From a virus (Duplodnaviria; Caudoviricetes): a DNA stretch of 64,000 bases. A program made the translations under genes and the position numbers. Every line of letters starts with the position of its first letter. Position 1 is the first letter of the stretch. Below, piece by piece: positions 6,366 through 25,531 of the stretch. The notes beneath the pieces were generated by a model. The model saw nothing but the letters and a program-made list of their open reading frames with translations. It did no database searches and was not told where the DNA came from. The stretch spans positions 192,001-256,000 of IMG/VR virus record IMGVR_UViG_3300015050_001523; one strand, written 5' to 3'.

Positions 6366-6446
6366 CGGAAGGTGGAGGACTCGAACCCCACACTTTTGAT
6401 GTCCCTGGTGTTCAAAACCAGTTTGGCTCCATAGCCGGCACCCTCC
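6366..6446 (-). tRNA. tRNA-Ser(UGA), long variable arm, no encoded CCA
   Basis: Acceptor GGAGGGT/ACCTTCC; anticodon arm CTGGT-TTTGAAC-ACCAG; T loop TTCGAGT; discriminator G. Confidence 0.85.
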
Positions 6447-22684: not shown

Positions 22685-23218
22685 ATGGCTGACGGATTAA
22701 ATGTTTTAGCTTTTAAATTGGATCAAGTTGTTCAGACACAAGAACGAACTGATAAAAAAGTCAGCGTTTTAGCTGATAAAATATTGAATCCAGAGTTTGG
22801 ACTCTCTTCTAAGGTTCAAACAAACAGTATTACAAACTCAAGAAATCGTGAAGATATTGATAAACTATATGAAAGAGTTGAAAAATTACTGTCTGTATGT
22901 GAATCCCATGAAAAAAGTGTCTCTTCTATAGAGGGATGGATGAAAAATCATGAAGAAAGGGACTCAGATTTAAGAAAATCTGTTACAATATTAGCAGACT
23001 CAATAACAAAAAAATTTGAAGAACAAGATAAGGTATTTAAACCAATTCAATTAGAACATATCGTAAGAACTTCAAATAAGGTTTGGAAAGATAAAGTTAT
23101 TTGGCTTATAATTTCAGCATTAATAACAGCATTGGCGCTCCCTCCAGCAATTAGGGCAATTAAAAGCTCATATGGAAATGGAGATTCTATAGAAAAAATA
23201 GAAAAAGTATCAGAATAA
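22685..23218 (+). CDS. Coiled-coil protein with C-terminal TM helix
   Basis: Heptad-rich body followed by VIWLIISALITALALPPAI. Confidence 0.7.
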   Translation: MADGLNVLAFKLDQVVQTQERTDKKVSVLADKILNPEFGLSSKVQTNSITNSRNREDIDKLYERVEKLLSVCESHEKSVSSIEGWMKNHEERDSDLRKSVTILADSITKKFEEQDKVFKPIQLEHIVRTSNKVWKDKVIWLIISALITALALPPAIRAIKSSYGNGDSIEKIEKVSE

Positions 23219-23226
23219 TTAAAAAA

Positions 23227-23307
23227 GTCCACGTAGTCGGCCATGTCTTCTAAGCATTGTAACCGTAACGGAATCTGAAATTGAAGGTTCGAATCCTTCC
23301 GTGGACG
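23227..23307 (+). ncRNA. tRNA-Arg(UCU)-like RNA lacking a D-arm, with an enlarged extra region
   Basis: Perfect acceptor GTCCACG/CGTGGAC; perfect T arm GAAGG-TTCGAAT-CCTTC; anticodon arm ATGT-CTTCTAA-GCAT; only 9 nt where the D arm should be. Confidence 0.8.
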
Positions 23308-23338: not shown

Positions 23339-23380
23339 ATAAAAAAGCCCTCTTAAAATATTTTAAGAGGGCTTTTTTAT
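23339..23380. terminator. Perfect 42-bp palindrome/bidirectional terminator
   Basis: ataaaaaagccctcttaaaatattttaagagggcttttttat. Confidence 0.85.
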
Positions 23381-23408: not shown

Positions 23409-24206
23409 ATGAATTTTAAAATTCAAATAGCAAATAGATTTGAAAAGAAAAAAATAGAAAATCAAAAATTGGTAGCAATAGAACCAATTATAAGTGGAAT
23501 TAGGTGCATTTCCATTATAAAAGATAATGATATTGATTTTTATTCCGCCAAAAATACAAAAATCAAAGAAGATTTTACTAAATTAATCAAAGAAGATTTC
23601 AAAACTCTTTTAAAAGAGGAGAAAATTGAAAATTTTTCTATATTTGATGGAGTCTTGTCAAAAACAGAAAATTATTACAATTATTTTATATTTGATTGGC
23701 TCCCATATTTTGAATGGGAAACACAGACACCCAAACTTACATGTCAAGAAACAAGAGAAAAACTAGAAGACATGCTATTTGCAACAAGCAAATTTATAAA
23801 ACTTGTTGTTAGAGATATTATTCCTCCTTCCAGCGTTATACCAATCCATAATGTTTATATTTCAAAAAAGTATAAAGGAACAATGGTAAAAATTTTAAGT
23901 TCAAAATATAGTTTTGGGAAAACATATAATGTTATGGAAGTAAAAGATTCTTATGATATCGATCTTGAAGTTACATCATTTGAAGAAGGACATGGAAAGT
24001 ATAATAAAATGCTAGGTGCAATTATTTCAAAATATGGTTCTTCATTTGTTAAAATAGACTCAGGATTTAGTATAGAACAACGAAAAGAAATTTGGGAAAA
24101 TAGAACAAAATTTAGAAATAAATTTGCTAATATTAAATACAAAAAAATAAATGACGGAAATTTGATCGAGCCATCATTCAATTTTTGGAAGGAAAATAAA
24201 AAATAA
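23409..24206 (+). CDS. ATP-dependent DNA ligase homologue with degenerate catalytic motifs
   Basis: EPIISGIRC (KxDG position), FDGVL, FIFDWL, KGTMVK, and OB domain DLEVTSFEEGHGKY..MLGA..SGFSIEQR. Confidence 0.8.
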   Translation: MNFKIQIANRFEKKKIENQKLVAIEPIISGIRCISIIKDNDIDFYSAKNTKIKEDFTKLIKEDFKTLLKEEKIENFSIFDGVLSKTENYYNYFIFDWLPYFEWETQTPKLTCQETREKLEDMLFATSKFIKLVVRDIIPPSSVIPIHNVYISKKYKGTMVKILSSKYSFGKTYNVMEVKDSYDIDLEVTSFEEGHGKYNKMLGAIISKYGSSFVKIDSGFSIEQRKEIWENRTKFRNKFANIKYKKINDGNLIEPSFNFWKENKK

Positions 24207-24208
24207 TC

Positions 24209-25531
24209 ATGGAAGAACAGCAATTTACAAAAACAATCAATAATGAAGAATATATTCAAACTTTGAAATCTGTTCTAGACGATATAGAGAAAATTTCAAA
24301 AGCTGATATAGCTGCCTATTTGACAAAAAATAAGACATTCATTTCTGAGCGCCTTTCTACTTTATTAAGACATACTGTTGACAATGGAAGTCCATTGGCT
24401 CGGCTTATAAAAAAACAAATACTTGAAGCCGCATATAACGCAGAAAAGGCTGGGGCTGATTCCACTAGATTTTTTATTGCTTTTGTTTTGAATTTAATTC
24501 AAACTCTTTTAAAGAATTTAGAAAATGAAAATATTCCTAATATAGTCAAAAAATTAGATTTTGACTATCGAGAAATATCAAATAGAATTATCGAAGAAAC
24601 AAAACCTGCAACTTGGGAAGATATTGTCGAATGTGTGACTAAATCAAGCGACAATGAAATGTTATCTAAAATGGTTTTAGAAGCTGTTGAATTGGCAGGG
24701 CTAGAAGGAAACATAATTCCAGGAGGCTCTTCAAATGGAAAGTATTCAGTTGAATTGGTTTTGGGATATAACTTTCCAGTGTCAACCTATCCATTATTTA
24801 CAAGCGAAGATGGTGGAAGATGGGGCCGAGGAGATGTTAGGGTTCTTGTCGTTGATGGAATAATCGAGAGAGCGTCAGAACTTCATAATTTCTTCACAGA
24901 AGCGTATAGCAACGAAAAGCCTCATCTTATTGTTGCTCGTGGTTATGGAGAAGAAGTTATTGCAACAATATCTGCCAACAAGAAATTAGATATTTGTCCA
25001 ATTAGAATTCCTTGGGAAATTGAAAGTATAAATTTTATTGCTGATATTTCTATAGTGTGCGGTTCTAAAATTGTATCTACAATGAAAGGAGACTCTGTTG
25101 CAACCATTGTTTATGATGAACTTCCAATCGTAGATAAAGTTATATGCACAAAAGAAAATTTAAATATAATAAACAATAAAACACAGCAGACTGTCAGTTC
25201 TCATATTTCAGATCTTTCAGAAAGGAGAGAAAATACTCATATAGAAGAAATGTCTGAACTTATAAATAAAAGAATAAAGGCATTAAATTCTCATACTGTT
25301 CATATTCGTTTAGGTTCTCTGACAGAGCAACAAAAAATGAAAGAATTAGAATCTATTGATTATTCTTTAAGAATTGTTAAAAGAATTTTAAATAAAGGAA
25401 CGATTTATATGAGAGAGCTTGGATTTAATGAAAAAATGCCAACAACCTCTGTATTGTCGGCACTTTATTATGGAATTTCTCTTGCTAAATCTCTTATTTC
25501 TATAGATTTGGCAATAATGAATGATGATTGA
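24209..25531 (+). CDS. Divergent GroEL-like (group I) chaperonin, short, ATPase motif degenerate
   Basis: Colinear with GroEL: AGADSTRF (GDGTTT position), AGLEGNI, VLVVDGII, LIVARG, IADISIVCG, RIKALNSHTVHIRLG. Confidence 0.8.
   Translation: MEEQQFTKTINNEEYIQTLKSVLDDIEKISKADIAAYLTKNKTFISERLSTLLRHTVDNGSPLARLIKKQILEAAYNAEKAGADSTRFFIAFVLNLIQTLLKNLENENIPNIVKKLDFDYREISNRIIEETKPATWEDIVECVTKSSDNEMLSKMVLEAVELAGLEGNIIPGGSSNGKYSVELVLGYNFPVSTYPLFTSEDGGRWGRGDVRVLVVDGIIERASELHNFFTEAYSNEKPHLIVARGYGEEVIATISANKKLDICPIRIPWEIESINFIADISIVCGSKIVSTMKGDSVATIVYDELPIVDKVICTKENLNIINNKTQQTVSSHISDLSERRENTHIEEMSELINKRIKALNSHTVHIRLGSLTEQQKMKELESIDYSLRIVKRILNKGTIYMRELGFNEKMPTTSVLSALYYGISLAKSLISIDLAIMNDD

What the first reader, a model, noticed from the sequence alone, without database searches (positions are those of the whole stretch)
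23227..23307. D-armless tRNA-Arg(UCU)-like RNA with a rewired core
Seen: perfect acceptor and T arms and a UCU anticodon loop, but only TAGTCGGCC replaces the D arm. A 25-nt extra region holds a CCG-TAA-CGG hairpin. TCGG can pair with CTGA in the extra region, making a new helix that encloses the anticodon arm. No CCA is encoded; a strong terminator follows. Established: bacterial ArgRS normally needs D-loop A20, and several defence and toxin nucleases cut anticodon loops (colicin D targets tRNA-Arg). Inference: not a decayed gene, since the stems are intact; possibly an anticodon-nuclease decoy, a regulatory tRNA mimic, or an unusual functional tRNA for AGA codons, which are frequent here.
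Basis: partly seen in the sequence, partly recalled or inferred. Interest (0 to 1): 0.7.

Follow-up and report, generated by a model that had tools for sequence, protein, structure and literature searches.

The report
Rewired phage arginine tRNA gene
This 81-base gene of a giant phage is very probably a working arginine tRNA whose D-arm is built from strands on either side of the anticodon arm. Many phages share this non-cloverleaf design, gene finders mostly miss it, and I found no paper that describes it.

Summary
The element is not an oddity of this genome. It belongs to a large class of phage tRNA genes with the same layout. I collected 57 distinct viral copies, 17 full-length copies in prokaryote assemblies and one in a cultured Microbacterium phage.

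Covariation shows that nucleotides 10-11 pair with the two bases just before a conserved UGAAA(A)U. Nucleotides 12-14 pair with the three bases ending in the G of a conserved GUAA. Between these two 3' strands sits a bulge that reads like a D-loop (UAA..GGA), keeping the GG and the following A.

Nearly all class anticodons are arginine ones (UCU, UCG, ACG, GCG, CCU). In phage tRNA arrays these genes supply Arg isoacceptors that ARAGORN or the record does not list.

A model built only from the prokaryote copies finds the window element at 67.5 bits, E 7e-16.

Best reading: a functional, non-cloverleaf tRNA-Arg(UCU). No expression data were available. Earlier agents of this scan reached the same reading for this class on other DNA.

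The parts
23227..23307 (+). Whole gene: rewired tRNA-Arg(UCU), 81 nt, no encoded CCA
   Evidence: Class model R2 gives 78.1 bits. Independent model R3 gives 67.5 bits, E 7e-16, as the only hit in the window. Rfam tRNA gives 31 bits. ARAGORN makes no call.
23227..23233 (+). Acceptor stem, 5' strand (GTCCACG)
   Evidence: It forms 7 Watson-Crick pairs with 23300-23306. All 7 pairs covary in the class.
23234..23235 (+). U8 A9 linker
   Evidence: T8 is invariant and A9 is at least 90% conserved in 57 class members.
23236..23237 (+). Helix D1, 5' strand (G10 U11); pairs with 23274-23275
   Evidence: Class pair 10-51: GC 37, AU 15, CG 1, UA 1, other 3. Class pair 11-50: CG 21, UA 19, AU 7, UG 3, other 7. 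In the window G10-C49 pairs and U11/U48 is a mismatch.
23238..23240 (+). Helix D2, 5' strand (C12 G13 G14); pairs with 23263-23265
   Evidence: Class pair 12-39 is CG in 57 of 57. Pair 13-38 is GC 39, CG 10, AU 6, UA 2, with none unpaired. Pair 14-37 shows five pair types.
23241..23262 (+). Anticodon arm: 4-bp stem (23243-23246 with 23254-23257), loop CTTCTAA (23247-23253, anticodon 23249-23251), and an internal loop (23241-23242 and 23258-23262) joining it to helix D2
   Evidence: Sequence. Anticodon-stem pairs covary in the class. C16/U32 is flagged as non-standard.
23263..23265 (+). Helix D2, 3' strand (C37 C38 G39)
   Evidence: G39 is the invariant G of the GTAA motif.
23266..23273 (+). 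D-loop-like bulge TAACGGAA (equivalents of A14, R15, G18, G19, A20, A21)
   Evidence: TAA and the GG are conserved in the class. Canonical phage tRNA-Arg genes carry the same GTAATTGGA string as their D-loop. The fourth base of GTAA covaries with the last base before the T stem: A/T 99, G/C 4, other 2.
23274..23275 (+). Helix D1, 3' strand (U48 C49)
23276..23282 (+). Conserved single-stranded linker TGAAATT (class consensus TGAAAAT); its last T is the Y48 equivalent
   Evidence: TGAAA was fixed by the scan pattern, so its invariance is by construction. The motif also recurs in copies found without it.
23283..23299 (+). T arm GAAGG / TTCGAAT / CCTTC
23300..23307 (+). Acceptor stem 3' strand plus discriminator G
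23339..23380 (+). Intrinsic terminator that ends the transcript carrying the tRNA
   Evidence: 19-pair stem followed by a T run.
22685..23218 (+). Upstream 177-aa ORF (coiled-coil protein with a C-terminal membrane helix). It marks the syntenic slot and is probably co-transcribed with the tRNA
   Evidence: Homologues in related phages are followed by a tRNA-Arg(UCU) gene in the same position. Protein alignment.

Best explanation
The element is a functional arginine tRNA (anticodon UCU, reading AGA and probably AGG) of a 322-kb phage. It is built on a non-cloverleaf plan shared by many phages.

After the acceptor stem and U8-A9, a single 5' strand (nt 10-14) pairs with two separate 3' strands. 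Nucleotides 12-14 pair with nt 37-39, directly after the anticodon arm. Nucleotides 10-11 pair with nt 48-49. The anticodon arm is therefore nested inside a D-stem-like helix.

The D-loop sequence (UAACGGAA) bulges from the 3' strand between the two halves. It keeps the GG and the following A.

Inferred steps:
- The gene is transcribed with the upstream ORF up to the terminator.
- RNase P and 3' trimming release the RNA.
- The host enzyme adds CCA.
- The GG contacts the normal T loop to form the elbow.
- Host ArgRS charges the tRNA through C35, U36 and the A after GG.
- The tRNA then works on the ribosome.

Shown here: class membership, the covarying helices, the restriction to Arg anticodons, and placement inside tRNA arrays. 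Not shown: expression, processing, charging and decoding.
For: Class and secondary structure:
- 57 distinct viral sequences share the layout.
- The proposed structure is paired in 95.7% of cells. Its covariation score is 0.916 against 0.237 for shuffles, and 0 of 500 shuffles reach it. The two new helices are 91-92% paired, with many double changes.
- A tertiary Levitt-type pair is suggested: R15 and Y48 equivalents are A/T in 99, G/C in 4 and other in 2 sequences.

Membership of the window copy:
- A model built only from 18 prokaryote-assembly copies hits the window once, at 67.5 bits, E 7e-16.

Evidence for a decoding role:
- Class anticodons are UCU, UCG, ACG, GCG and CCU, plus one UAU.
- In the array on L116, 19 ARAGORN tRNAs include no Arg, and three rewired genes (UCU, ACG, UCG) lie among them. 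L102 and L268 are similar, though L268 also has an ARAGORN-called canonical tRNA-Arg(ACG).
- Microbacterium phage Pumpernickel (NC_073468.1) annotates Arg acg, ccg and cct but not tct in the 20 kb read. It has an unannotated rewired UCU gene at 100456-100533, scoring 67.8 bits.
- AGA is the commonest Arg codon of the window's phage.

Locus:
- Relatives carry a tRNA-Arg(UCU) gene in the same slot.
Against: - There are no expression, processing or charging data. No RNA run was available.
- The phage already has two canonical tRNA-Arg(UCU) genes, so this copy is not needed to read AGA.
- The window copy has two non-standard pairs out of 23 (U11/U48 and C16/U32) and only a 4-bp anticodon stem.
- Thermodynamic folding of the single sequence does not favour any particular core. 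The z-score is -1.17.
- The three-dimensional fold is inferred, not modelled.
Confidence: 0.72

Rival explanations
1. It is a tRNA mimic that is not used for decoding. It would act as a decoy or sponge for a host nuclease or toxin that attacks tRNA-Arg anticodon loops, or as a regulatory RNA. In a milder form it is a working tRNA whose unusual body makes it resistant to such a nuclease; that form is compatible with the best explanation.
For: - The anticodon loop and arm are strictly kept while the body differs from host tRNAs.
- The phage also has two canonical tRNA-Arg(UCU) genes, so this copy is formally redundant.
- The two bacterial genomes that hold a copy also keep canonical tRNA-Arg(UCU) genes.
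- In relatives the slot lies beside an MBL-fold gene with faint hits to the anti-Pycsar protein Apyc1.
- From my own knowledge, colicin D cuts tRNA-Arg anticodon loops and phage tRNAs can rescue nuclease-depleted pools.
Against: - In several arrays the rewired genes supply Arg isoacceptors that are otherwise not listed. That fits decoding better than decoy action.
- The ArgRS determinant positions (C35 and the A after GG), the T loop and the acceptor stem are conserved. A pure decoy would not need them.
- The Apyc1-like gene is absent from the window's phage.
- No nuclease or defence link was found in this window.
Confidence: 0.15
2. It is a decaying or recently inactivated copy of the tRNA-Arg(UCU) that related phages carry in this slot. 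On this view it lost half of its D hairpin by deletion and gained a slipped-strand expansion in the variable region.
For: - Relatives hold a different, compact 69-73-nt tRNA-Arg(UCU) at the same place.
- The model of that compact family scores the window copy at only 29.6 bits.
- The 25-nt region shows a 6-nt periodicity: 15 of 24 matches, shuffle p about 0.001.
- The copy is redundant with two canonical genes.
Against: - The supposedly damaged parts are exactly the conserved, covarying parts of a class with at least 75 independent members.
- The window copy keeps every invariant base of the class and 21 of 23 pairs.
- It scores 67.5 bits with a model that never saw it.
- Tandem Repeats Finder finds no repeat there.
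Confidence: 0.04
3. It is only a processing or stability signal. The acceptor/T-arm minihelix would recruit RNase P to define the 3' end of the upstream mRNA, and the released RNA would have no function.
For: - It lies 8 nt after the stop codon of the 177-aa ORF and before a terminator.
- The same arrangement recurs in relatives.
Against: - A processing signal needs neither a conserved anticodon loop restricted to Arg anticodons nor the D-loop-like motif and its covarying helices.
- Most class members lie in tRNA arrays, not behind ORFs.
Confidence: 0.04

Closest known systems
Canonical bacterial and phage tRNA-Arg(UCU), class I cloverleaf (Rfam RF00005). Examples are this phage's own genes at genome 115206-115281 and 118954-119027
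   Same: - 7-bp acceptor stem and a T arm with a TTCGAAT loop.
- CUUCUAA anticodon loop.
- U8 and A9.
- A D-loop sequence with GG followed by A.
- A likely R15-Y48 pair.
- No encoded CCA, as for all tRNAs of this phage.
   Different: - There is no D hairpin between positions 9 and 26.
- The D-stem-like helix is made by one 5' strand and two separate 3' strands that lie after the anticodon arm.
- The D-loop sequence comes after the anticodon arm rather than before it.
- ARAGORN does not call it, and Rfam aligns only the acceptor and T arms.
[quoted passage not shown]
   Same: Only a short stretch lies between the acceptor and anticodon stems, and there is no D hairpin. By coincidence the anticodon is also UCU.
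   Different: - In the mitochondrial tRNAs the D-arm is simply lost. The review describes a connector region in its place and a flexible, less rigid fold.
- Here the D-stem pairs and the D-loop motif persist in another chain order, together with a normal T loop.
- The host system is bacterial, not mitochondrial.
Compact tRNA-Arg(UCU) of related phages at the same locus
   Same: - Same slot, behind the 177-aa ORF homologue.
- Same anticodon loop, a similar acceptor stem and T arm, and no CCA.
- The anticodon stem is extended by about 3 further pairs beyond a bulge.
   Different: - The compact form keeps a local 3-bp D hairpin with a TTGGAG loop before the anticodon arm and has a 3-nt variable region.
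- Its model scores the window copy at only 29.6 bits, against at least 73 bits for its own members.
Class II tRNAs (Leu, Ser, Tyr) with a long variable arm
   Same: A long stretch (25 nt) lies between the anticodon stem and the T stem.
   Different: In the class that stretch does not form a local hairpin: it is paired in only 55% of cells. It supplies D-stem strands and the D-loop motif instead.
Circularly permuted tRNA genes of the red alga Cyanidioschyzon and split tRNAs of Nanoarchaeum (from my own knowledge)
   Same: The order of tRNA parts along the DNA differs from the textbook order.
   Different: In those cases processing restores a normal cloverleaf RNA. Here the mature chain itself would carry the changed order, because the acceptor ends are in their normal places.

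Membership tests
Rewired phage tRNA-Arg class (defined here, models R2 and R3) | A significant match to a covariance model built without the candidate | tested here: met
   R3 was built from 18 copies in prokaryote assemblies. It scores the element at 67.5 bits, E 7e-16, and this is the only hit in the window.
Rewired phage tRNA-Arg class | Helix D2: nt 12-14 pair with the three bases ending in the G of GTAA | tested here: met
   The window has C12-G39, G13-C38 and G14-C37. The class covaries at these pairs.
Rewired phage tRNA-Arg class | Helix D1: nt 10-11 pair with the two bases before TGAAA | tested here: inconclusive
   G10-C49 pairs but U11/U48 does not. Three other members with GT at nt 10-11 show the same U/U, and 7 of 57 members have a non-standard pair at this position.
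Rewired phage tRNA-Arg class | The D-loop-like motif GTAA(N1-2)GGA, followed 2-3 nt later by TGAAA(A)T and then the T stem | tested here: met
   The window reads GTAACGGAATC TGAAATT GAAGG.
Rewired phage tRNA-Arg class | An arginine anticodon | tested here: met
   The anticodon is UCU. Class anticodons are UCU, UCG, ACG, GCG and CCU, with one UAU exception.
Canonical tRNA (Rfam RF00005, cloverleaf) | A score at or above the gathering threshold | tested here: inconclusive
   The score is 31 bits against a threshold of 29 when 104-351 nt are searched. The element is not reported in the default whole-window search. The score comes from the acceptor and T arms only.
Canonical tRNA (Rfam RF00005, cloverleaf) | A D-arm hairpin between positions 9 and 26 | tested here: not met
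   Only 9 nt lie there. ARAGORN makes no call at default settings and gives a forced, wrong fold at lowered thresholds.
Canonical tRNA (functional definition) | Processed, CCA-tailed, aminoacylated and used in decoding | not testable with these tools
   No RNA-holding run was listed.
D-armless (mitochondrial-type) tRNA | An unpaired replacement loop in place of the D-arm and loss of the D-loop/T-loop contacts | tested here: not met
   The 5' stretch pairs with covariation. The GG motif and a standard T loop are kept.
Class II tRNA | A local hairpin in the variable region | tested here: not met
   The candidate hairpin is paired in 55% of cells and shows almost no compensatory change.
Compact tRNA-Arg(UCU) family of related phages (model R1) | A match to R1 at family level (at least 73 bits) | tested here: not met
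   The window copy scores 29.6 bits and is aligned only at the acceptor and T arms.

The most novel reading that the evidence does not exclude
Phages use a second, non-cloverleaf way of building an elongator tRNA that works with bacterial ArgRS, EF-Tu and ribosomes. The anticodon arm is threaded through the D-arm, so the D-stem is assembled from strands on both sides of it and the D-loop follows it. The design may persist because it escapes host enzymes that recognise or cut the normal tRNA-Arg body. The window gene is one member. Here it has replaced a different unusual tRNA-Arg at a conserved locus, which would allow the change of architecture to be traced.
Probability: 0.55. Interest if true: 0.85.

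Novelty: new variant of a known kind. Interest (0 to 1): 0.75.

Why it matters
Outside mitochondria, tRNAs are generally treated as cloverleaves, and a 2020 review of non-canonical tRNAs (PMC7609411) lists no such case in phages. A conserved class in which the D-arm is rewired around the anticodon arm would show that the L-shape can be reached by another chain topology.

It would also reveal a set of tRNA genes that annotation overlooks. ARAGORN called 5 of 57 copies as tRNA-Arg, all with wrong ends. A RefSeq phage record leaves its copy unannotated. Phage tRNA repertoires and codon-usage analyses therefore undercount arginine tRNAs.

The class gives tRNA engineers a natural scaffold with an altered core. 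Because a cultured Microbacterium phage carries a copy, the question can be tested at the bench.

Tried and rejected
1. Pseudogene reading. I first read the element as a compact-family tRNA with a 7-8-nt D-hairpin deletion and a hexamer expansion. I dropped this when the class appeared. The 6-nt periodicity remains unexplained, and Tandem Repeats Finder sees nothing there.

3. Close relatives:
- An exact 3'-half pattern and the ligase-like protein found nothing in viral contigs.
- P0009 found nothing there either.
- blastn of the locus against the phage collection found nothing.
- The DNA of the two closest contigs (P0009 and P0002) could not be fetched. Whether they hold the rewired or the compact type is unknown.

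4. Sequencing runs. No RNA holder was listed. Contigs of three metagenome runs gave only short pieces. Two cover part of the element without differences, which is too little to use.

5. Functional link to neighbours:
- The 177-aa ORF has only a sub-threshold PIN-like hit. It looks like a coiled-coil membrane protein.
- The RNA ligase and the Apyc1-like MBL gene that flank the slot in relatives are elsewhere or absent in this phage.

6. No phage ArgRS or CCA-adding enzyme was found.

7. No repeat or mobile-element copy of the 25-nt region exists elsewhere in the genome.

8. Six searches of the paper library and three papers read gave no description of this architecture.

Full report
**Setting.** The window is bases 192001-256000 of a 322.5-kb IMG/VR phage record of about 30% G+C. 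ARAGORN finds 37 tRNA genes in the genome. They include two ordinary tRNA-Arg(UCU) genes at genome 115206-115281 and 118954-119027, and none encodes CCA. AGA makes up 51% of arginine codons. No phage ArgRS or CCA-adding enzyme was found.

**Observation.** The sequence at 23227-23307 holds the following:
- a perfect 7-bp acceptor stem;
- a perfect T arm with loop TTCGAAT;
- a CTTCTAA loop on a 4-bp stem;
- 9 nt where the D-arm should be;
- 25 nt before the T stem.

A 19-pair terminator follows at 23339-23380. ARAGORN does not call the element. Rfam's tRNA model reaches 31 bits against a gathering score of 29, but only in a small search and only through the acceptor and T arms. Folding the single sequence is uninformative, with a z-score of -1.17.

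**The locus in relatives.** Homologues of the upstream 177-aa ORF and of the downstream ligase-like and chaperonin-like genes occur in a handful of uncultured phages. In those whose DNA could be read, the same slot holds a tRNA-Arg(UCU) gene of 69-73 nt.

That 'compact' family has a 3-bp D hairpin with loop (T)TGGAG and an anticodon stem lengthened by 3 pairs beyond a bulge. Its structure is well supported: 96% of cells are paired and 14 of 22 pairs show double changes. Its model (R1) scores family members at 73-92 bits but the window copy at only 29.6 bits. I therefore first suspected a damaged copy. That reading was wrong.

**The class.** I scanned viral contigs for a UCU loop followed 20-40 nt later by the T loop. 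This returned about 30 genes with the window's layout. Each has TA after the acceptor stem, only 7-9 nt before the anticodon stem, and a long 3' region. That region holds GTAA(Y)(T)GGA and then (R)YTGAAAAT.

A more specific scan gave 57 distinct sequences including the window. On their alignment (A5) the structure I derived is paired in 95.7% of cells. Its covariation score is 0.916 against 0.237 for shuffles, no shuffle of 500 reaches it, and all slid controls are far lower.

Two helices replace the D hairpin:
- D1 joins nt 10-11 to the two bases before TGAAA. Pair 10-51 is GC 37, AU 15, CG 1, UA 1. Pair 11-50 is CG 21, UA 19, AU 7, UG 3.
- D2 joins nt 12-14 to the three bases ending in the G of GTAA. 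Pair 12-39 is CG in all 57. Pair 13-38 is GC 39, CG 10, AU 6, UA 2, with none unpaired.

The local hairpin is paired in 55%. Both are rejected.

In the window the pairs are G10-C49, U11/U48 (a mismatch shared with three other members that have GT at nt 10-11), C12-G39, G13-C38 and G14-C37.

**The bulge is a displaced D-loop.** The 8 nt between D2 and D1 read TAACGGAA here, and the class consensus is TAATTGGA. Canonical phage tRNA-Arg(UCU) genes in the same scan carry GTAATTGGAA as their D-loop. The bulge therefore holds the equivalents of A14, R15, G18, G19, A20 and A21.

The fourth base of GTAA and the last base before the T stem vary together: A/T in 99 sequences, G/C in 4 and other in 2. 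That is what the R15-Y48 Levitt pair of normal tRNAs would give. This supports a normal tertiary core, but it is an inference.

**Independence.** An anticodon-free motif scan of one genome per prokaryote species gave 45 loci. Seventeen full-length matches at 73-95 bits, plus one copy cut at its 5' end, lie in them. A model built from these alone (R3) finds the window element as the only hit in 64 kb, at 67.5 bits, E 7e-16. The phage genome has no second copy.

**Function.** Across all copies the anticodons are UCU, UCG, ACG, GCG and CCU. The single exception is a UAU copy, which also has GGT instead of GGA.

- On L116 a phage array of 19 ARAGORN tRNAs has no Arg gene, and three rewired genes (UCU, ACG, UCG) lie among them.
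- L102 and L268 carry three rewired Arg genes each. L268 also has an ARAGORN-called canonical tRNA-Arg(ACG).
- In Microbacterium phage Pumpernickel the 20 kb of the tRNA region that I read lists Arg acg, ccg and cct but no tct. A rewired UCU gene (67.8 bits) sits unannotated between gp290 and gp289.

These facts fit working arginine tRNAs. ARAGORN called 5 of 57 copies as tRNA-Arg with wrong ends, 3 as undetermined, and missed the rest.

The class is not strictly viral. Brucella haematophila and an Ochrobactrum strain each hold one copy in the chromosome, next to ordinary genes. Both also keep canonical tRNA-Arg(UCU) genes.

**Limits.**
- I have no expression, processing or charging data.
- Contigs of other metagenomes cover parts of the element without differences, but they are too short to weigh.
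- The window's phage has two canonical UCU tRNAs, so the reason for a third, rewired one is open. Escape from a tRNA-directed host nuclease is a reasonable guess without direct support here.
- The two closest relatives could not be read, so the change from the compact to the rewired type at this locus cannot be dated.

**Literature and earlier notes.** Six searches and three papers read gave no description of this layout. This included a 2020 review of non-canonical tRNAs.

After I had reached this reading, the scan's notebook showed that earlier agents found the same class on other phage DNA and read it the same way. One note records that part of such a claim later failed a check, without saying which part. 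I therefore do not claim that the class is phage-only or never annotated.

**Verdict.**
- The 'D-armless, rewired core, not decayed' reading is right in spirit and wrong in its pairings.
- The element is a member of an apparently undescribed non-cloverleaf tRNA-Arg class.

Noticed in passing
L002 3532-3602, L003 3534-3604, L005 1736-1804, L008 4923-4991, L010 4661-4733, L014 2054-2123, L015 8000-8069, L042 475-544(-), L054 4562-4632, L055 1676-1746: A second unusual family: compact 69-73-nt tRNA-Arg(UCU) genes. They have one nucleotide after the acceptor stem, a 3-bp D hairpin (loop TTGGAG), an anticodon stem extended by 3 pairs beyond a bulge, and often G1.U72. They occupy the window element's slot in related phages. 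ARAGORN calls only some of them, and the one member scored with Rfam's tRNA model (L055) fell below the gathering threshold at 25.4 bits.
   Followed up: partly
window 6366-6446 (-): ARAGORN calls this 81-nt gene tRNA-Ser(UGA), but Rfam does not report it at gathering level. It has a very small D-arm and a weak, short variable arm for a serine tRNA.
   Followed up: no
genome 182205-182279 and 182864-182937 (outside the window): ARAGORN calls tRNA-Leu(AAG) of 75 nt and tRNA-Leu(UAA) of 74 nt. Both therefore lack the long variable arm that bacterial leucine tRNAs normally have.
   Followed up: no
L164 2050-2130 (-): A rewired-type gene with anticodon UAU (isoleucine AUA) and GGT instead of GGA in the D-loop-like motif. 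It scores 54 bits with R2, so the architecture is not limited to arginine.
   Followed up: no
NC_073468.1 100456-100533 (L287 2465-2542): Microbacterium phage Pumpernickel, a cultured phage, has an unannotated rewired tRNA-Arg(UCU). It lies in an 84-nt gap between two CDSs of its tRNA region. The related phage Zooman has a match under a 'hypothetical protein' CDS.
   Followed up: partly
L248 6519-6598 and L271 7152-7231: Brucella haematophila CCUG 38531 and Ochrobactrum sp. CM-21-5 each carry one rewired tRNA-Arg(UCU) in the chromosome. In L248 it lies near catalase and histidine-kinase genes and a tRNA-Gln, and no phage genes were seen in the 8 kb read. Both genomes also have canonical tRNA-Arg(UCU) genes.
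   Followed up: partly
window 23258-23287: A 6-nt periodicity (TGTAAC CGTAAC GGAATC TGAAAT TGAAGG) gives 15 of 24 matches at offset 6, with shuffle p about 0.001. It may reflect likeness between the YYG-TAA and YUG-AAA strands that pair with the same 5' strand. It is unexplained.
   Followed up: partly
window 23409-24206 (+): The ligase-like ORF is 265 aa, as in its closest relative. Homologues in other relatives are 412-462-aa ATP-dependent DNA ligases with three Pfam domains, so this phage has a shortened form.
   Followed up: no
window 24209-25531 (+): A highly conserved 440-aa protein (59-70% identity across relatives). It is distantly like a phage chaperonin: 27% identity to a 'putative chaperonin' of Flavobacterium phage MaF61, and one source names a relative GroEL.
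   Followed up: no
L056 898-1746, L059 2705-3565 and homologues: In relatives the gene before the tRNA slot is an MBL-fold protein with faint hits to the anti-Pycsar protein Apyc1, and an RNA ligase gene lies just upstream of it. Neither lies at this locus in the window's phage.
   Followed up: partly
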